DNA from: Promethearchaeota archaeon
Lineage (GTDB): Archaea > Asgardarchaeota > Lokiarchaeia > Sigyniarchaeales > Promethearchaeaceae
Assembly: GCA_016933055.1 (NCBI GenBank)
Contig: JAFGBS010000009.1
Location: forward strand, 210,001-242,000
Length of the DNA: 32,000 nucleotides
Reading direction: 5' to 3'
Shown here: positions 157-6,650 of the stretch, piece after piece
Layout: the number at the start of each line of letters is the position of its first letter
Numbering within the stretch: the stretch's first letter is position 1
Made by a program: the position numbers and the translations under genes
Notes under the pieces: generated by a model
Databases searched by the model: none
What the model was told of the DNA's origin: nothing
Seen by the model: only the letters and a program-made list of their open reading frames with translations

Positions 157-2166
157 CTAGATAGGTTCCCCAAGATCATGGAGGAATCCTGCATCAAGTT
201 TTCGAAAAACTTCTCCGTATTTTGCACCAAAACTTGCTCCTATTTCACCATAATAGGCACGAACTAAGATATTGACTCGAATTGGATTGGGAATATCCTC
301 TTCTAATAGATCAACACGCAGATTATTAGCACGTGCTAATAGTTTTCGTTGATGGAACCAATTTTTCATAACAGTTTGGTGCTGAGAAACCGCATTAATT
401 TTCGTATCGATAACATCAGTAATATCCAAATGGAAATTTATCACTTGCGGGTTCAAATTTTCCGCAAATAGGTATCTCTCTCCGACAGTATGAATCTCTA
501 ATCCTTCTTTGAAATGGTGTCGATAATAGGAATCAAAACTAGCCTGCCAGCAGGCATCATTCACCACTCTTGCAGTGATGATGTGGTCGGGATTCTCCTC
601 ATACAGTGGTGCGACGTCAAAAGTTACTACCACATCCGGTTTATGGATGCGGATTAATTTCACGAAAATTTCACGAAGAATTTCATAATCGGCCGTATAT
701 AACGTATCGGAAGGATAGTCTAAGTGGATGGTTTTTTCAGCTCCCAAAATTGCATATGCTTTTTCCGCTTCTTTACGGTTTCTGTTAATTGTTTTTTCGG
801 GAGTAAGTCCTACCGAGTCTCCATAATCATCAGTTATTCGAACGCAAATGAGTTTATTTCCTTCATCCGTAAGTTTTGCGAGTAATCCTCCGGAAAATAT
901 GGTTATATCATCTGCATGTGGAGACACCGCCATAATGGTCTTGTATTTTAAGATATCCCTAATTGCTTCTTGAATTGCATCCGATGCAGCTAATCCCATC
1001 GATTCCATTTCATGTCCCACAAAGTTTTCCTTTGTTTCTGGTTTTAAAAACTGGACTGGGTCTAGATTCCATTCCTTTCGGGGAATAAAATATCCCACTG
1101 AATCATTTACGTGACTCATGATGATAAAATGGTGATCAGTGTATTTTTCTAACAATGGATTGATTAATCCTGGAAAAGGTTCTCCTGGAATAGTTAATAA
1201 ATGTAAATTTCCGATTCGAATCTTTCCAATAGAACTACGTATTACATTTTCTTTAACCATCCTTAAATTAAAGATACCTAAAGTGTTTAATAAAGAAAAA
1301 TCATCGTTTTCTAAAGGTAGATCAACATGACGCTCTCGAATTTCAATCTTATTCGATTCTATATTGCATAAATTTTTAGAAATTCGTTGCAGTCCAGCAA
1401 ATACTTCATTTGCCAAAATTTCCATTTTATCGTAGCCTTGTTCCACGTAAATAGGAGTTTGAGATCCACACAAACCTAAAGAAAATAGTGCAACTCCCCC
1501 CATTGATTGTTCAATTTTCATACTAACTAGTCCGGGATAATCTCCTGAGATCTGGACATTTTCTCGGGTAGTAATTTCAGGTTGAGCTGGGAAAGTCCAT
1601 AATGTGCCTATAATTTCGTCTCCTTCTTTAAATTGAATCAGGTTAAGAGTGTCTTCTACGAGATTCTCAAGCCGAAAATTTACAATTAATTCTTTAATCG
1701 ATTTTGAACCAAAATATATATCCACAGATCTTAGTGATTGCAATGTCTGTTCCACGCTTTGGATAATTTGATGGCGCAAGAATAGCATATATCGGGAATT
1801 GATTCCAGATTTTCCAATCAAGGGACCCCATAATCCCATAGTATCAGGACCTGCATGAGTATGCGTAGAGAACACGAAAATTCGCGACTTTTTAAGTCCC
1901 AAACCTACAAGATCCGCTTTTACTAAGGAAATAAAATCTTGAAGCAATCCTACGCACTCTACGGAAATTAAAACAATCCGTTCTTTATCATCATCTAACA
2001 CTAAAGAGCGTACATATATTGGATCATGCAACCCCTCTACCAAAGGTGCTTCCATCGTTGCATATCCCGCAATGTACATATTTCCAAATTCCTCTCTTGG
2101 AGTAATTTCCACCTTGTAAGTACCGCATTTCATGATATTTTTCACTGAACGATGATTATTATACAA
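157..2166 (-). CDS. Fusion: neutral/alkaline ceramidase-like amidohydrolase (N-term) + PIG-L/LmbE family deacetylase (C-term)
   Basis: N-term GYA...GLHDPIYVRSLVL and STHTHAGP are ceramidase N-domain motifs. From about residue 410, MAVSPHADD and NPDH are PIG-L Zn-deacetylase motifs. The start could instead be the ATG at 2133 (MKCGTY). Confidence 0.8.
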   Translation of the reverse strand: MYNNHRSVKNIMKCGTYKVEITPREEFGNMYIAGYATMEAPLVEGLHDPIYVRSLVLDDDKERIVLISVECVGLLQDFISLVKADLVGLGLKKSRIFVFSTHTHAGPDTMGLWGPLIGKSGINSRYMLFLRHQIIQSVEQTLQSLRSVDIYFGSKSIKELIVNFRLENLVEDTLNLIQFKEGDEIIGTLWTFPAQPEITTRENVQISGDYPGLVSMKIEQSMGGVALFSLGLCGSQTPIYVEQGYDKMEILANEVFAGLQRISKNLCNIESNKIEIRERHVDLPLENDDFSLLNTLGIFNLRMVKENVIRSSIGKIRIGNLHLLTIPGEPFPGLINPLLEKYTDHHFIIMSHVNDSVGYFIPRKEWNLDPVQFLKPETKENFVGHEMESMGLAASDAIQEAIRDILKYKTIMAVSPHADDITIFSGGLLAKLTDEGNKLICVRITDDYGDSVGLTPEKTINRNRKEAEKAYAILGAEKTIHLDYPSDTLYTADYEILREIFVKLIRIHKPDVVVTFDVAPLYEENPDHIITARVVNDACWQASFDSYYRHHFKEGLEIHTVGERYLFAENLNPQVINFHLDITDVIDTKINAVSQHQTVMKNWFHQRKLLARANNLRVDLLEEDIPNPIRVNILVRAYYGEIGASFGAKYGEVFRKLDAGFLHDLGEPI

Positions 2167-2246
2167 TCGCTACTAAATTATAAAAAAATTCTCTAATAAG
2201 AGTATTAAAAGACTAGAATAGAAATCTACATGAAGAGAAGATATCA

Positions 2247-3269
2247 ATGCCCAGTACGATCAAATTTGGTCAGAATCTTGCCGTAGATGTAATGAATGAT
2301 GCAGGTTCTTATGTTTTAGTTACCCAAACCCCCCCGTTTACCTCTGTGCTTAAATCCAAACTATCCAATTTTCCCGCATATACCCTATTTCCGAAAAAAA
2401 TGGATATTCACTACCAAGAAGAACTCGCTCAAAAGAAATCAAGCAAGCAAACCATTGGATATGTTATAGGATTCGGAGGAGGTGTTGCGATTGATACAGC
2501 AAAATATCTTTCTTGGAAATGGAACCTTCCCTTAATCCAAATTCCCTCGATAATTTCAACAGATGCGTTTTTAACCCATGAAATCGGAGTACGAGTCGAA
2601 AATAAGGTGAGGTATATCGGGAAAGTTGTTCCTGAACAGCTGATAATTGATTATGAAATTATCAAATCCGCTCCAAAAGTTTTGAATTATGCGGGAACAT
2701 GTGATGTGCTTTCGATCTGCACAGCTTTAGGAGATTGGAAAATAGCTCATGAACAATTTGGTGACCCTATGGATGTCTCTATCTTTAGAAGTGCACGGGA
2801 TTGTGCCCAACGTTTGCTTGATGATGCATTCATAATAAAAGAGATGCAAGAAGAAGGAATCCGAAAATTAGTAGGATATTTACAAGAAGAAATACAAATT
2901 TGTGAAAAATGGGGCTCATCAAGACCCGAGGAGGGGGGGGAACACCATTTGGCTTACTGTATTGAAGAATTAAGTCCAAAAAGATATTTACATGGTGCTT
3001 TAGTAGCTTTAAATATCTTAACGGTGTTACGACTTCAAGAGGATTATGCAGAATTTCAACCTGCTGAATTAAAACATTTCTTTGATATAATAGGGCACAG
3101 TTACACTTTTTCACAAATAGGAGTTACTTCCGATATTTACAGAAAAGCACTCGATTCTATCATGTTCTACGTGCGGAGAGAAAAATTGGAAAAAGGAATC
3201 TGGTATACTGAAGATCCCTTTTTGCGATATTCCATTGCTGAAATAATAGATTGGATTTCTAAATTCTAA
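2247..3269 (+). CDS. Glycerol-1-phosphate dehydrogenase-like protein (EgsA/AraM-like; dehydroquinate synthase-like/Fe-ADH superfamily)
   Basis: GFGGGVAIDTAKY NAD-binding motif; metal-ligand motifs CDVLS, SRPEEGGEHH and LHGALV parallel EgsA GD(L)xS, SRPxSGxEH and HG. Substrate specificity uncertain. Confidence 0.7.
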   Translation: MPSTIKFGQNLAVDVMNDAGSYVLVTQTPPFTSVLKSKLSNFPAYTLFPKKMDIHYQEELAQKKSSKQTIGYVIGFGGGVAIDTAKYLSWKWNLPLIQIPSIISTDAFLTHEIGVRVENKVRYIGKVVPEQLIIDYEIIKSAPKVLNYAGTCDVLSICTALGDWKIAHEQFGDPMDVSIFRSARDCAQRLLDDAFIIKEMQEEGIRKLVGYLQEEIQICEKWGSSRPEEGGEHHLAYCIEELSPKRYLHGALVALNILTVLRLQEDYAEFQPAELKHFFDIIGHSYTFSQIGVTSDIYRKALDSIMFYVRREKLEKGIWYTEDPFLRYSIAEIIDWISKF

Positions 3270-3410
3270 TTGATGAAGAAAGTCCATCTGTAATATTTCT
3301 AATTTCTTTCACTTTAAAAGAAAGAACTGGACCTTATAACAAAAATTTATTATCTCTAAACGGGATAAATGGATCATTGAAATTATTCGAAAAACACATA
3401 GAAACGGAAG

Positions 3411-4730
3411 TTGAGTGAAAAATTGATACAGACAACTCTCAGTATTTGGGATCTCGGTGGGCAAGAAAGATTCGATTCCTTCAAGGAGAGCTATATGCGG
3501 GGTACTGCAGCTATAGTATTGGTATTCGACTTAGTCAATTTCGATTCTTTCAGCAAATTGGATTCTTATTTAGAAACAGCGAGGAATGGTGCAGGTAATG
3601 TACCTATTTTGCTCGTTGGCAATAAATCTGATTTAGAAACTGAGGAAGAATTAGGACAAGTGATCCATCAAAATGAGATTGATGATTGGATGCGCCTTCA
3701 CCAGATCACTGATTTTATGAAAACCTCCGCTAAAACTGGGGAAAATGTAAGAAAAATGTTCACAAAAGTCACTATCATGTCATTAGTTGATATAGATGAA
3801 AATCCCCGTATGGGTGAAGTTCGTGATGGAGGTTTCTTATTCAAAATAGTCGTGATTGGTGCCGCAGGGGTCGGTAAAACATCGTTAGTACATCGATTCA
3901 CTGAGAATGTCTTTCTCCAAGATTATAAGCTCACAGTTGGTGTGGATTTTATTGTGAAGAATTTAGAGATTGATGAGGATCTCCTTCCAACAGATGTATT
4001 ACAAAATCTAAAAACCTATATGGAAGAAAAAGAACCAAAACAACCTATTAAACCAATAACTCCTCCCGATGCAGAAAAACCGATAAAGCCCGAACCTTTT
4101 GCAATCGCATCCACTCAAAAAATAGAAAAACCTCTACCCAAACCTGCACCTAAAAAAGAACCTACGTTGATTCATCCCCCAAAAGAAGTTCCTCCGGAAA
4201 AAGTAATCAGTGTAATTTATAATAAGCAAATGATTTTGAATTCTCGCAATAAATTCATCCTTCAAATTCAGAGTGAACATTTTTTCACTGATCCTTACGT
4301 TGAAATTACAATTAAGCCGGAATTTCCAGGGTGTATTGTCACTCCCAATGAAATCATATTGGATCAAGCGAAACCTGAAGAACAAATAGAATTTAATATT
4401 ACTCCGATGAGTGTAGGGGATTTAGAGGATGCAAGCATGAAGATATTACATGATCAAAAACAAAGATATACATTTCACACTCCAAGTAAAGTAGTATCTC
4501 AAGTTAGTAGTTGGATTCTTATAGGGATATGCTTAGCGTTTTTATTACTAGGTCCACTTTTTGGTGAGACTTTCTTTAGTGGTTATTCTATAGGTCCTCT
4601 ATCAATAACCCTCATAAGCCTTATCCTAGCAGCAGTATTGTTGGTTTTTGGATTAATCTCATACTTTTCTAAGAAGCAAAAACATACTGATCATGCGGAT
4701 TTTACCATAAAAGATGGTAATAATGATTAG
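3411..4730 (+). CDS. Circularly permuted Rab-like small GTPase (G3-G4-G5-G1-G2) with Pro-rich linker, beta-rich domain and two C-terminal TM helices
   Basis: WDLGGQERF (G3, D at 3450), GNKSD (G4, N at 3621), TSAK (G5, 3723-3734), GAAGVGKT (G1, 3858-3881), TVGVDF (G2, T at 3933). TTG start with an in-frame TAG at 3399-3401. Hydrophobic helices at about 4512-4565 and 4590-4667. Confidence 0.85.
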   Translation: MSEKLIQTTLSIWDLGGQERFDSFKESYMRGTAAIVLVFDLVNFDSFSKLDSYLETARNGAGNVPILLVGNKSDLETEEELGQVIHQNEIDDWMRLHQITDFMKTSAKTGENVRKMFTKVTIMSLVDIDENPRMGEVRDGGFLFKIVVIGAAGVGKTSLVHRFTENVFLQDYKLTVGVDFIVKNLEIDEDLLPTDVLQNLKTYMEEKEPKQPIKPITPPDAEKPIKPEPFAIASTQKIEKPLPKPAPKKEPTLIHPPKEVPPEKVISVIYNKQMILNSRNKFILQIQSEHFFTDPYVEITIKPEFPGCIVTPNEIILDQAKPEEQIEFNITPMSVGDLEDASMKILHDQKQRYTFHTPSKVVSQVSSWILIGICLAFLLLGPLFGETFFSGYSIGPLSITLISLILAAVLLVFGLISYFSKKQKHTDHADFTIKDGNND

Positions 4731-4757
4731 AATTCACTGTTTTCCTATTTCTTTTAT

Positions 4758-6650
4758 TTAATATTCCATAGATTTTATACGTTCAGCGATAATCTGCGCG
4801 GACGTATCATCATACATAATTTTATACAAATGTTGTGCTTTTTGGAAATTTTCCAGTGCAGAATTGGTTTCATTGCGATCGATGTGAATTTCTGCAGACT
4901 TTACCAATAAATCTGCTTGTTTTCTTCGAAAATTTTCTTCTTGATAAATCACAAGAGACTTAGCATAATGCTCTAAAGCCTTATCTAATTGATCTAGGTT
5001 TTCTGCATATATATTTCCTAATTTTTCGTATATGTCTCCCTCTGCTTCTTTTTCTCCAAATTTTTCATAAATTTCCTGGGCTAATTGATAATATTCCAAA
5101 CATAATCCGAATTTCTCTTTCACGAGATATAGATCTCCAAGATGGTGGTAAAAAAAAGCTTCCTTTTGTTCAAACTGTAAAGTTCTAACCAGATTTAATC
5201 CTTCCACAAGAATATTCTCTGCGATCTCCAATGAATTTTCTTTCAGATAAATGATAGATAGTAATTCATAATCTTCGATGCATTCCCGGTAGAATTCATT
5301 CCTTTTTTTTATTGCAAGTGCCAAGTTACTATACTTCTTTGCTAAATGATAATACGCTTGCCCTTGTTCAAAATATAACCTCCCAAATTTAGAAAATACC
5401 ATTGCCAAGCCAAACTCATTTTGGGTTTCTTGGAAGAATACGGCATTTTTTTGCAAAATAGCATACGCACGAGCATAATTTTGCAATTTAAGATACACAT
5501 CTGCAATATTATTAAAGATTGAGACTTGATCGACTATATCAGTGGATTCTTCATAAGCTTTTTTATATTTCCGTAAAGCAGTATCAAAGTTATTGAGTTT
5601 GAAGTAGATATTTCCTATATTATTCAAAACTCGAATACGTCGTCGATTATCATGAGTTTTTTCCAAAATTCCATAGGCATCATCAAAATAATTAAGCGCT
5701 GTGTAAAAATTACCCCTATCCTCATAAAACAAACCTAGTTCATTCTTGACTATCGCAAGACCGGTTCTTGAATTTTCATTCTCCTCAGTGCTAAACTCTT
5801 CTTCTGCTGATTCTAAGTATCTAAGAATTTCAGATTCATTACCCATCTGAGATAGCAATCGGTTCGCCAATTGCAATTTTAAATAAGCAGTATTCTTACC
5901 CAACTGACAGGCTAATTCAATATCACTACGGAGTTTCTGGATCTCAAAATCTTGATCGATAATAGAGAGTTCATATTCATCATATTCTAAGGGAGTCGAT
6001 TCCAAGAATTTTGATTCAAATCCAGGATTCATCATTTCAGTTTCCTTACCTGAATCCATGGGAATGGGAGGATCTTGATAGCTTTTTTCCAGAACTGCAC
6101 CATCAGGGGTAATCTTTCCTGATGATTGATATAATTCAGACAGAGCTACTAAAGAACGAGCAAAATAGAATTTATCTTCATCTTCTGGATGAGAAATGGT
6201 GTAGGGTACATTTTTTATATTCTCCCCATCAGTTTGAAACACTAGAAAACCGTTATTAAATTGCTCAACGCGTGTAAAATCAAATATAATACATAATGCA
6301 CCAAATTCAAATGTTGATAAACTTTTTACATCTTGTTCTGATAATTTCCCTCCACTTCGTGGAAAACCATGAAAAAATCCACAGATAAACGAATTCTTTC
6401 CATATACATTTATATCTATTGTGCAGAAAGATTTAGTGATTTTTTTCTCGTTGGGGGTTCCTGTATTATGGGGTATAAAATTTCTAACTTCCACTTGTCC
6501 ATCCTTGGCAATCTCACCAATACAAAATCCATACGTATGTTGGATATCCCCTGGATCCATTAAACGATTAGCATATTTTCCTGAAAATAGTATCATGTCT
6601 CGAAAACATTTCGAGGATATTTTGACCATAGGAGTTATCAACACTATCAA
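4758..6650 (-). CDS. MPN/JAB-like domain (degenerate JAMM) fused to a long TPR array
   Basis: N-term YGFCIG...GFFHGFPRSGGKLSEQD...LCIIFD matches the MPN layout (GWYHSHP...SxxD). C-term about 380 aa of TPR-like repeats (NELGLFYEDRGNFYTALNYF, NNIGNIYFKLNNFDTALRKY, EKLGNIYAENLDQLDKALEHY). The start may be the ATG at 6629. Confidence 0.75.
   Translation of the reverse strand: MIVLITPMVKISSKCFRDMILFSGKYANRLMDPGDIQHTYGFCIGEIAKDGQVEVRNFIPHNTGTPNEKKITKSFCTIDINVYGKNSFICGFFHGFPRSGGKLSEQDVKSLSTFEFGALCIIFDFTRVEQFNNGFLVFQTDGENIKNVPYTISHPEDEDKFYFARSLVALSELYQSSGKITPDGAVLEKSYQDPPIPMDSGKETEMMNPGFESKFLESTPLEYDEYELSIIDQDFEIQKLRSDIELACQLGKNTAYLKLQLANRLLSQMGNESEILRYLESAEEEFSTEENENSRTGLAIVKNELGLFYEDRGNFYTALNYFDDAYGILEKTHDNRRRIRVLNNIGNIYFKLNNFDTALRKYKKAYEESTDIVDQVSIFNNIADVYLKLQNYARAYAILQKNAVFFQETQNEFGLAMVFSKFGRLYFEQGQAYYHLAKKYSNLALAIKKRNEFYRECIEDYELLSIIYLKENSLEIAENILVEGLNLVRTLQFEQKEAFFYHHLGDLYLVKEKFGLCLEYYQLAQEIYEKFGEKEAEGDIYEKLGNIYAENLDQLDKALEHYAKSLVIYQEENFRRKQADLLVKSAEIHIDRNETNSALENFQKAQHLYKIMYDDTSAQIIAERIKSMEY

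What the first reader, a model, noticed from the sequence alone, without database searches (positions are those of the whole stretch)
3411..3980. Rab-like small GTPase circularly permuted in the order G3-G4-G5-G1-G2
Seen in sequence: the protein begins with beta3/G3 (LSIWDLGGQERF), then the Rab-like SYMRGTAAIVLVFD, G4 (NKSD), G5 (TSAK) and helix alpha5. A short linker (IDENPRMGEVRDGG) leads into beta1/G1 (FKIVVIGAAGVGKTS) and G2/beta2 (YKLTVGVDFIVKNLEI, containing the RabF1-like VGVDF). Exactly one complete motif set is present. An in-frame TAG at 3399 and a short AT-rich gap upstream leave no room for an earlier G1/G2. Established knowledge: the circularly permuted GTPases I know (YlqF/RbgA, YqeH, RsgA, Nug1/nucleostemin, eukaryotic cpRAS) are cut between G3 and G4, giving G4-G5-G1-G2-G3. 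Inference: this is a different permutation, opened at the beta2-beta3 interswitch hairpin, probably made by tandem duplication and trimming. It would unlink switch I from switch II and attach switch I/beta2 directly to the C-terminal tether. I know of no description of this topology.
Basis: partly seen in the sequence, partly recalled or inferred. Interest (0 to 1): 0.93.

Follow-up and report, generated by a model that had tools for sequence, protein, structure and literature searches.

The report
Circularly permuted Rab-like GTPase, Lokiarchaeial family
This archaeal gene encodes a real, conserved Rab-like GTPase whose domain is rearranged to start at strand beta3 and end at strand beta2; the same rearrangement was described in 2008 for eukaryotic cpRAS, so this is a second, apparently independent and undescribed case, not a new topology.

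Summary
ORF 3411-4730 (+) encodes 439 aa with one set of GTPase motifs in the order G3-G4-G5-G1-G2. Residues 9-127 align to Rab30 76-190 and residues 135-189 to Rab30 18-72. It is neither an artefact nor a decaying duplicate. Collinear orthologs occur in about 70 of about 153 genomes of one Asgard order (Promethearchaeota/Lokiarchaeia) and in none of about 247 other Asgard genomes searched. All G motifs are conserved, dN/dS is 0.05-0.14, and an independent metagenome contig bridges the alpha5-to-beta1 junction. AlphaFold2 gives one confident domain (pLDDT 87.9, pTM 0.87).

The novelty claim does not hold. The archaeal family is Rab-like, lacks VWA/COG2373 partners, and groups with conventional Asgard GTPase genes that mostly sit in head-to-tail arrays. 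That points to a separate origin by fusion of neighbouring genes followed by trimming.

The chain leaves beta2 through a conserved acidic-Pro helix into a membrane-directed tail. Here the tail is a Pro/Lys linker, an Ig-like beta-sandwich and a two-helix transmembrane hairpin. I found no paper describing this archaeal family. The same scan noted the membrane tether on this window (e1-5415489), not on other DNA.

The parts
3411..4730 (+). Whole gene: permuted Rab-like GTPase with membrane tether (439 aa; start TTG 3411 or TTG 3423; stop included)
   Evidence: The public gene call for this genome (P0009) starts at M29 and cuts off beta3/G3.
3432..3473 (+). Strand beta3 and G3/switch II (TTLSIWDLGGQERF; DLGGQ at 3450-3464), at the very N-terminus
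   Evidence: W13, D14, G17 and Q18 are invariant in alignment A1.
3621..3632 (+). G4 NKSD
   Evidence: NKxD is present in 55 of 55 orthologs.
3723..3734 (+). G5 TSAK
3744..3791 (+). Helix alpha5
   Evidence: AF2 helix 113-126; aligns to the end of Rab/Rho chains
3792..3833 (+). New alpha5-to-beta1 linker (IDENPRMGEVRDGG), with the family-conserved PR[LM]GE motif and invariant G135
   Evidence: A contig from an independent metagenome (X2, 3688-3852) bridges it.
3834..3881 (+). Strand beta1 and G1 P-loop (GAAGVGKT at 3858-3881)
   Evidence: The P-loop is intact in 55 of 55 orthologs.
3933..3971 (+). G2/switch I threonine within the Rab-type TVGVDF motif, and strand beta2
3972..4028 (+). Conserved acidic-Pro motif (DEDLLP) and helix directly after beta2
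   Evidence: L192 and P193 are nearly invariant; AF2 helix 194-204 has pLDDT about 86-91
4029..4202 (+). Pro/Lys/Glu-rich low-complexity linker
   Evidence: Read from the sequence; length varies greatly among orthologs
4203..4496 (+). Ig-like beta-sandwich domain, with no Pfam family
   Evidence: Alignment A2; AF2 all-beta, pLDDT 76; weak filamin/PapD/ASH/MSP-like matches; no Pfam match
4512..4667 (+). Two transmembrane helices (aa 368-385 and 397-419) forming a hairpin anchor, followed by a basic tail
   Evidence: AFDB clusters show the same beta-sandwich plus helices module at the C-termini of STAS, TIR and other proteins.

Best explanation
The gene belongs to a conserved family of Rab-like small GTPases found in one order of Asgard archaea (Promethearchaeota/Lokiarchaeia). 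In this family the G domain is circularly permuted at the beta2-beta3 hairpin. The chain runs beta3-alpha2-beta4-alpha3-beta5-alpha4-beta6-alpha5, then a conserved 14-residue linker, then beta1-alpha1-beta2.

Shown here: one motif set in the order G3-G4-G5-G1-G2; a confident single-domain model; collinear orthologs in about 70 genomes; purifying selection; conserved nucleotide-binding and catalytic residues, including the switch II Gln.

Inferred: the protein binds and hydrolyses GTP as an ordinary switch. Its membrane tether leaves from the tip of the interswitch (after beta2) instead of from alpha5. The switch I/beta2 element is therefore coupled directly to a conserved acidic-Pro helix and a membrane-directed tail. 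That tail is a polybasic helix, a single C-terminal TM helix, or, as here, a Pro-rich linker plus an Ig-like beta-sandwich plus a TM hairpin. The likely role is a permanently membrane-resident switch that recruits effectors without a prenyl/GDI cycle.

Inferred origin: one event inside this order. Two adjacent conventional Rab-like genes of a head-to-tail array fused, and the first G1-G2 and the last G3-G5 were then lost. This was independent of eukaryotic cpRAS, which has the same topology.
For: - Order and homology. Both halves hit Rabs best; all 60 best PDB matches of the G1-G2 half are Rab family proteins.
- Fold: AF2 pLDDT 87.9, pTM 0.87, with secondary structure in the permuted order. 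Residues 4-129 superpose on beta3-to-alpha5 of Rho/Rab structures at Z 12-13 and rmsd 1.5-1.8 A (Foldseek).
- Family: collinear hits to profile positions 1-201 at E 1e-57 to 1e-100 in 67 genomes, plus 3 divergent ones, all in one order, among 400 Asgard genomes. There are 60 cp ORFs in the fetched loci and about 13 clusters at 50% identity.
- Selection: dN/dS 0.05-0.14 in eight ortholog pairs, 0.215 in a divergent pair; for the window versus L011, dS is saturated at 89% aa identity.
- Motifs among 55 complete orthologs: G1 55, G2 Thr 55, G4 55, DxxGQ 52.
- Assembly: an identical 117.5-kb contig in run X1, and independent X2 contigs including one across the junction.
- Origin: 38 cp rows form one clade (SH-aLRT 99), sister (SH-aLRT 88) to a clade in which 22 of 34 genes lie in arrays. 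Holding all 41 Asgard cp rows as one clade is not rejected and scores higher (p-AU 0.746, lnL +24). Three independent tandem pairs lie in frame, separated by little more than a stop codon, with the same alpha5-to-beta1 spacing as cp proteins.
- Tether: 21 of 57 cp ORFs have a hydrophobic 19-mer after the G domain, against 0 of 86 conventional relatives; the others carry a polybasic helix.
Against: - No biochemical data exist. GTP binding, hydrolysis and membrane association are inferred.
- No aligner that allows circular permutation was available, so the position of beta1-alpha1-beta2 in the model rests on pTM and pLDDT alone.
- The sister relation to the tandem-array clade has moderate support only (88, quick LG+G4 search).
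- Three divergent members sat elsewhere in the unconstrained tree.
- Independence from cpRAS rests on family signatures and architecture, not on a joint tree, because no cpRAS sequence could be obtained.
- Most members (36 of 57) have no TM helix, so an integral-membrane anchor is not a family-wide trait.
Confidence: 0.85

Rival explanations
1. The archaeal family and eukaryotic cpRAS share a single origin. One permutation event was inherited from Asgard archaea by eukaryotes, or transferred between them.
For: The motif order and cut site are identical. Asgard archaea are the source of many eukaryotic small-GTPase lineages (general knowledge). CPRas is now considered a possible LECA gene (PMC13393502).
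Against: - cpRAS is classified in the RAS family and has the TIE G2 motif. It sits in VWA or COG2373-like proteins.
- This family has a Rab-type TVGVDF motif. Both halves hit Rabs best, and there is no VWA domain.
- The family nests beside conventional GTPases of one Asgard order and is absent from the other Asgard genomes searched.
Confidence: 0.05
2. The gene is an artefact or a dying gene: a misassembly, a frameshifted tandem GTPase, or a unique decaying duplicate.
For: The public gene call starts at M29 and misses G3. The start codon is TTG. No RNA evidence was found.
Against: About 70 independently assembled genomes carry the same order. Purifying selection is strong. All motifs are conserved. 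Contigs from two studies agree. There are no extra motifs or room for them upstream.
Confidence: 0.01
3. The chain does not close into a monomeric G domain. It completes the fold in trans, as a domain-swapped dimer or oligomer in which beta1-alpha1-beta2 of one chain packs on beta3-alpha5 of another.
For: Opening the interswitch hairpin removes a covalent constraint. Anand and colleagues argued that this cut should impair folding (cited in PMC2430557). Permuted proteins are prone to swapping (general knowledge).
Against: The conserved 14-residue linker is modelled with pLDDT 85-92, and the monomer has pTM 0.87. Linker length is nearly constant across the family.
Confidence: 0.07
4. The protein is a nucleotide-binding pseudo-GTPase that no longer cycles and serves as a static membrane scaffold.
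For: One sub-branch (L091-L093) has replaced DxxGQ by DPPG[DE] and so lost the catalytic Gln. TM-anchored forms cannot use a GDI cycle.
Against: The window's protein and 52 of 55 orthologs keep the P-loop, the switch I Thr, DxxGQ, NKxD and SA[KL].
Confidence: 0.07

Closest known systems
cpRAS domain (Elias & Novotny 2008, Biol Direct 3:21; PMC2430557)
   Same: Ras-superfamily G domain with motif order G3-G4-G5-G1-G2. It is opened between strands 2 and 3, and helix 5 leads into strand 1.
   Different: cpRAS is eukaryotic and belongs to the RAS family (TIE G2 motif). It is embedded in large VWA or COG2373-like proteins, and its authors called it eukaryote-specific. This family is archaeal and Rab-like. 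It stands at the N-terminus of small or membrane-tethered proteins and appears to have arisen separately.
Asgard Rab-like small GTPases (for example Thorarchaeota Rab, PDB 7ezb) and eukaryotic Rabs
   Same: Best sequence matches for both halves. Rab-type switch I motif, WDxxGQERF switch II, NKxD and SAK.
   Different: Those proteins have the canonical order G1-G5. Eukaryotic Rabs have a prenylated C-terminal Cys tail after alpha5. Here the order is permuted, there is no Cys motif, and the tail leaves from beta2.
YRG/YlqF-RbgA-YqeH-RsgA circularly permuted GTPases
   Same: A circularly permuted P-loop GTPase domain that still forms a GTPase fold.
   Different: Their order is G4-G5-G1-G2-G3, cut between strand 3 and helix 2. 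They are an ancient ribosome-assembly family of the TRAFAC class and are not related to Rab.
Arf-family interswitch toggle
   Same: By inference only: nucleotide state could be passed through beta2-beta3 to a membrane-binding helix.
   Different: In Arf the hairpin is intact and the helix is N-terminal. Here the hairpin is open and the helix follows beta2. There is no evidence for a register shift.

Membership tests
cpRAS (Elias & Novotny 2008) | Motif order G3-G4-G5-G1-G2, with the chain opened between beta2 and beta3 | tested here: met
   compared with the definition
cpRAS (Elias & Novotny 2008) | RAS-family sequence signature, such as the TIE G2 motif | tested here: not met
   G2 is TVGVDF (Rab type). 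All 60 best PDB matches of the G1-G2 half are Rabs, and the top whole-protein matches are Rabs.
cpRAS (Elias & Novotny 2008) | Domain sits in VWA-containing or COG2373-like large proteins of eukaryotes | tested here: not met
   Pfam finds only Ras/Roc/Arf in this protein. Orthologs come from Promethearchaeota MAGs.
Rab family (sensu stricto) | RabF motifs (IGVDF, KLQIWDTAGQE, RFRSIT, YYRGA, LVYDIT) | tested here: inconclusive
   By eye, against motifs recalled from general knowledge: VGVDF is present; LSIWDLGGQE, RFDSFK, YMRGT and LVFDLV are partial matches. The protein is Rab-like, as are other Asgard GTPases.
Rab family (sensu stricto) | C-terminal Cys prenylation motif after a hypervariable tail that follows alpha5 | tested here: not met
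   The C-terminus is ...TIKDGNND, with no Cys motif. The tail follows beta2 and carries TM helices.
Rab family (sensu stricto) | Canonical order G1-G2-G3-G4-G5 | tested here: not met
YRG / YlqF-type circularly permuted GTPases | Order G4-G5-G1-G2-G3 | tested here: not met
   G3 precedes G4 at the N-terminus. The RsgA_GTPase Pfam match covers the P-loop only and is below its cut-off (19.4 against 30 bits).
Functional small GTPase (Ras superfamily) | Intact G1 GxxxxGK[ST], G2 Thr, G3 DxxGQ, G4 NKxD and G5 SAx in one folded domain | tested here: met
   Enzymatic activity itself was not tested.

The most novel reading that the evidence does not exclude
The beta2/beta3-opened Ras-superfamily fold arose a second time, in Asgard archaea, by fusion of neighbouring tandem genes. 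The rearrangement was kept because it wires the interswitch/switch I element directly to a membrane-binding tail. That would give a membrane-resident switch in which nucleotide state and tether conformation are mechanically coupled, an archaeal counterpart of the Arf interswitch-to-helix toggle with no prenylation or GDI cycle.
Probability: 0.2. Interest if true: 0.8.

Novelty: new variant of a known kind. Interest (0 to 1): 0.6.

Why it matters
- Anand and colleagues argued that opening the beta2-beta3 turn should impair GTPase folding. cpRAS was the single counter-example, and its authors considered it eukaryote-specific.
- A second lineage with the same cut, conserved under purifying selection in about 70 archaeal genomes, suggests the interswitch hairpin is a repeatedly tolerated opening point of the Ras fold.
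- Possible precursors still exist: adjacent in-frame genes separated by a stop codon. This makes it a clear natural case for the permutation-by-duplication model.
- It adds an unnoticed architecture to the Asgard small-GTPase repertoire, which is central to ideas on the origin of eukaryotic membrane trafficking. Here the G domain is tethered to the membrane from beta2 by TM helices or a polybasic helix.
- Public annotations call these proteins only 'GTP-binding protein' or 'Arf-like', and the call for this genome truncates G3.

Tried and rejected
- Literature searches combining Asgard or Lokiarchaeota, GTPase and permutation terms found no paper on a permuted Asgard GTPase. The bioRxiv hit uses 'permutation' in the statistical sense. 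Subscription journals are not covered.
- RNA evidence: no RNA holder was listed, and the two metatranscriptome runs of the source study laid no contigs on the stretch. This says nothing on expression.
- Structure comparison allowing circular permutation could not be run.
- A direct sequence comparison with cpRAS was not possible, because no cpRAS sequence could be obtained. No obvious cpRAS-like long protein appeared among the best 150 profile hits. That list is dominated by higher-scoring Rab-like proteins, so it is not evidence of absence.
- Genes neighbouring the window's copy give no functional link: an Fe-ADH-like gene upstream and a convergent TPR protein downstream. The conserved neighbours of the short forms (thioredoxin-like, a 692-aa coiled-coil protein, a methyltransferase, an HD protein) are not present here.
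- The C-terminal domain has no Pfam family. Fold matches to filamin, PapD, ASH and MSP domains are weak (E about 1e-4, TM 0.3-0.5) and support only 'Ig-like beta-sandwich'.
- Complex prediction was not used. Splitting the domain into halves would pass merely by likeness to solved GTPases.

Full report
**1. The observation**

The + strand ORF 3411-4730 encodes 439 aa. Pfam Ras (PF00071) matches at E 8e-39 in two stretches. phmmer against PDB chains aligns residues 135-189 to Rab30 residues 18-72 (P-loop, helix 1, switch I, strand 2). It aligns residues 9-127 to Rab30 residues 76-190 (strand 3 through helix 5). This is a clean circular permutation, with the break in the beta2-beta3 hairpin.

A motif scan of window 2001-5200 in all six frames finds one G1 (GAAGVGKT, nt 3858), one G3 (DLGGQE, nt 3450), one in-gene G4 (NKSD, nt 3621) and one Rab-type G2 (TVGVDF, nt 3933). 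The bare four-residue G4 pattern also matches twice by chance in other frames (nt 2834 + and nt 2270 -), with no other G motif near. The in-frame TAG at 3399 is there. The upstream gene ends at 3269, and the 141-nt spacer is 27.7% GC and full of stops.

The start may be the second in-frame TTG at 3423. That would give M plus four residues before LSIWD, as in the orthologs (MIDITLSIWD and similar). The public gene call for this genome (P0009) starts at M29 and so loses strand 3 and G3.

**2. The gene is real**

- A word-indexed search found collinear proteins covering 94-99% of residues 1-200 at 41-90% identity. All begin within a few residues of strand 3.
- A profile of 15 of them (A1) was run on 400 Asgard genomes. 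It gave single collinear matches to profile positions 1-201 at E 1e-57 to 1e-100 in 67 genomes, plus three divergent copies. All lie in one GTDB order: for example genus g19 in 51 of 54 genomes and g9 in 5 of 5. None lies in the roughly 247 genomes of other orders.
- Record titles name Promethearchaeota/Promethearchaeia MAGs. A few are labelled Hermod-, Hod-, Thor- or Odinarchaeota by their submitters.
- The window's genome has one permuted gene and about 30 conventional small GTPases.
- In 55 complete orthologs the P-loop, the switch I Thr and NKxD are intact in all, and DxxGQ in 52.
- dN/dS over the G domain is 0.05-0.14 in eight pairs and 0.215 in a divergent pair. For the window versus its same-genus ortholog L011, synonymous sites are saturated at 89% amino-acid identity.
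- Logan's assembly of run X1 contains the stretch in one identical 117.5-kb contig, but X1 may be the source sample. A hot-spring metagenome from another study (X2) yields identical short contigs, one of which (3688-3852) crosses the helix 5 to strand 1 junction.

Misassembly, frameshift and a unique decaying duplicate are therefore excluded.

**3. Fold**

AlphaFold2 on residues 1-205 with alignment A1 gives mean pLDDT 87.9 and pTM 0.87. The elements run E5-15, H19-29, E34-40, H44-61, E66-71, H87-96, E102-104, H113-126, E141-150, H156-165, E178-188 and H194-204. In canonical terms this is beta3-alpha2-beta4-alpha3-beta5-alpha4-beta6-alpha5-beta1-alpha1-beta2 plus one extra helix.

Sequential aligners superpose residues 4-129 on strand 3 to helix 5 of Rho, Rac and Rab structures, with VIA Z 12-13 and rmsd 1.5-1.8 A over 122-128 residues. 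Foldseek's best matches are Rab6, Rab1b and Sec4. An aligner that allows permutation was not available. The placement of strand 1, helix 1 and strand 2 therefore rests on the high pTM and on local pLDDT of 85-97.

The helix 5 to strand 1 linker is conserved in length and carries a PR[LM]GE motif with an invariant Gly.

**4. What is already known**

Elias and Novotny (Biol Direct 2008, PMC2430557) state that cpRAS conforms to G3-G4-G5-G1-G2. In cpRAS, strand 1, helix 1 and strand 2 directly follow helix 5, and the bond missing is the one between strands 2 and 3. They also quote Anand and colleagues' argument that this permutation should impair folding.

The topology is therefore known. cpRAS was described as a RAS-family domain with the TIE G2 motif. 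[quoted passage not shown] A 2026 paper from the same group treats CPRas as a possible LECA gene.

Five full-text searches found nothing on a permuted GTPase in Asgard archaea. Sources name these proteins only 'GTP-binding protein', 'small GTP-binding protein' or 'ADP-ribosylation factor-like protein'.

**5. Relation to cpRAS, and origin**

Both halves of the archaeal domain match Rabs best. All 60 top PDB matches of the G1-G2 half alone are Rab family proteins, including the Thorarchaeota Rab. No VWA domain is present.

I cut each domain into its two HMM-defined parts, put them in canonical order, and built a tree of 133 non-redundant sequences. In that tree 38 permuted sequences form one clade (SH-aLRT 99). 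Its sister (SH-aLRT 88) is a clade of 34 conventional GTPases, of which 22 lie in head-to-tail arrays of two or three genes. These arrays are often in the same MAGs that carry a permuted gene.

Three divergent permuted sequences (L091-L093) fell elsewhere on a long branch. They share the C-terminal domain of the long forms. Constraining all 41 Asgard permuted rows to one clade gave a better likelihood than the unconstrained search (+24 lnL; p-AU 0.746). A single origin inside this order is therefore the best reading.

In three independent arrays (L064/L094, L067, L096) the two genes are in the same frame and are separated by 3-15 nt including the stop. The distance from the end of the helix 5 model to the start of the strand 1 model is then -3 to +6 nt, which matches the permuted proteins. 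Loss of one stop codon would create G1-G5 fused to G1-G5, and trimming both ends would give the observed order. This is the classical permutation-by-duplication path, here with plausible precursors still present. It remains an inference.

**6. The rest of the protein, and how it probably works**

Immediately after strand 2 every member has an acidic stretch with a nearly invariant Leu-Pro, followed by a helix. After that come three kinds of tail:

- A 25-45-residue strongly basic helix, with no TM helix: 36 of 57 complete ORFs.
- A Lys/Glu-rich segment ending in one TM helix 5-9 residues from the C-terminus, a tail-anchor layout.
- The long form found here: a Pro/Lys/Glu linker of variable length, a conserved all-beta domain of about 100 residues, and two TM helices.

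None of 86 conventional relatives has a hydrophobic segment after the G domain. The all-beta domain has no Pfam family. Its model (pLDDT 76) is an Ig-like sandwich with weak filamin, PapD, ASH and MSP-like matches. In AFDB clusters the same sandwich-plus-helices module closes STAS, TIR and other signalling proteins. It looks like a reusable membrane-anchor module.

From these parts I infer a GTP/GDP switch held at the membrane without prenylation. Its tether emerges from the distal tip of the interswitch rather than from helix 5. That changes which face of the G domain looks at the membrane, and it links switch I/strand 2 mechanically to the tether. Whether nucleotide state is passed to the post-strand-2 helix, as the Arf interswitch passes it to the N-terminal helix, is speculation (about 0.2).

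The sub-branch L091-L093 has DPPG[DE] in place of DxxGQ and may not hydrolyse GTP.

**7. Verdict**

The claim of an unknown topology is wrong, because cpRAS (2008) has it.

What remains is an apparently undescribed archaeal Rab-like family with the cpRAS-type permutation. It probably arose independently and has unusual membrane tethers. I rate it a new variant of a known kind, with interest 0.6.

Noticed in passing
L064:5797-6891 (same locus as L094:1297-2391); L067:3744-4850; L096:882-1943: Pairs of conventional Rab-like genes lie head to tail in the same reading frame, separated by only 3-15 nt including the stop. Loss of one stop codon would fuse them with the same helix 5 to strand 1 spacing as the permuted family.
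   Followed up: partly
L091:1561-3024 (+), L092:644-2236 (-), L093:46-1464 (-): Divergent permuted members in another genus of the same order keep the P-loop, NKxD and the C-terminal beta-sandwich plus TM module. They have WDPPG[DE] instead of WDxGGQ, so the catalytic Gln is lost.
   Followed up: partly
P0199 (243 aa; EukProt, Bolivina argentea transcriptome): A Rab7-like sequence from a foraminiferan starts at strand 3 (IQVWDTAGQERF) and ends with P-loop, KATIGADF and strand 2. It is a single-member cluster. It may be a third independent permutation, or a fragment of a tandem Rab transcript.
   Followed up: partly
window 3411-3494: The public protein for this genome (P0009) starts at the internal Met29. 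The gene caller missed the TTG start and cut off strand 3 and the G3 motif. About half of the orthologs also lack an upstream ATG and appear to use TTG, GTG or other starts.
   Followed up: partly
L013-L062, about 3.4 kb upstream to 0.8 kb downstream of the short-form gene: Short-form permuted genes have conserved neighbours. On the same strand: a thioredoxin-like protein (181 aa), a 692-aa coiled-coil protein with no family, and a class I methyltransferase (247 aa) just upstream. An HD-domain protein lies convergent downstream. The window's long-form gene does not share these neighbours.
   Followed up: partly
window 4203-4667 (aa 265-419): The beta-sandwich plus two-TM-helix module has structural look-alikes at the C-termini of STAS, TIR and other unnamed prokaryotic signalling proteins in AFDB clusters. 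This suggests a widespread unnamed membrane-anchor module.
   Followed up: partly
window 157-2166 (-): A 669-aa protein combines an N-terminal neutral/alkaline ceramidase-like region (PF04734, E 3e-11) with a PIG-L GlcNAc-PI de-N-acetylase domain (PF02585, E 1e-23). This is an unusual lipid-related pairing in an Asgard genome.
   Followed up: no
window 4758-6650 (-): The convergent downstream gene encodes a 630-aa protein with many TPR repeats (a SNAP-like match among them). Its roughly 200-residue N-terminal region has no Pfam match.
   Followed up: no
G134, G137, G142 (single-contig genomes of the window's family): The closed genomes in the same family show only conventional-GTPase-level matches (best E 1e-31 to 1e-34). 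The permuted gene is patchy even within the family; it is present in genera g1 and g7 only.
   Followed up: no
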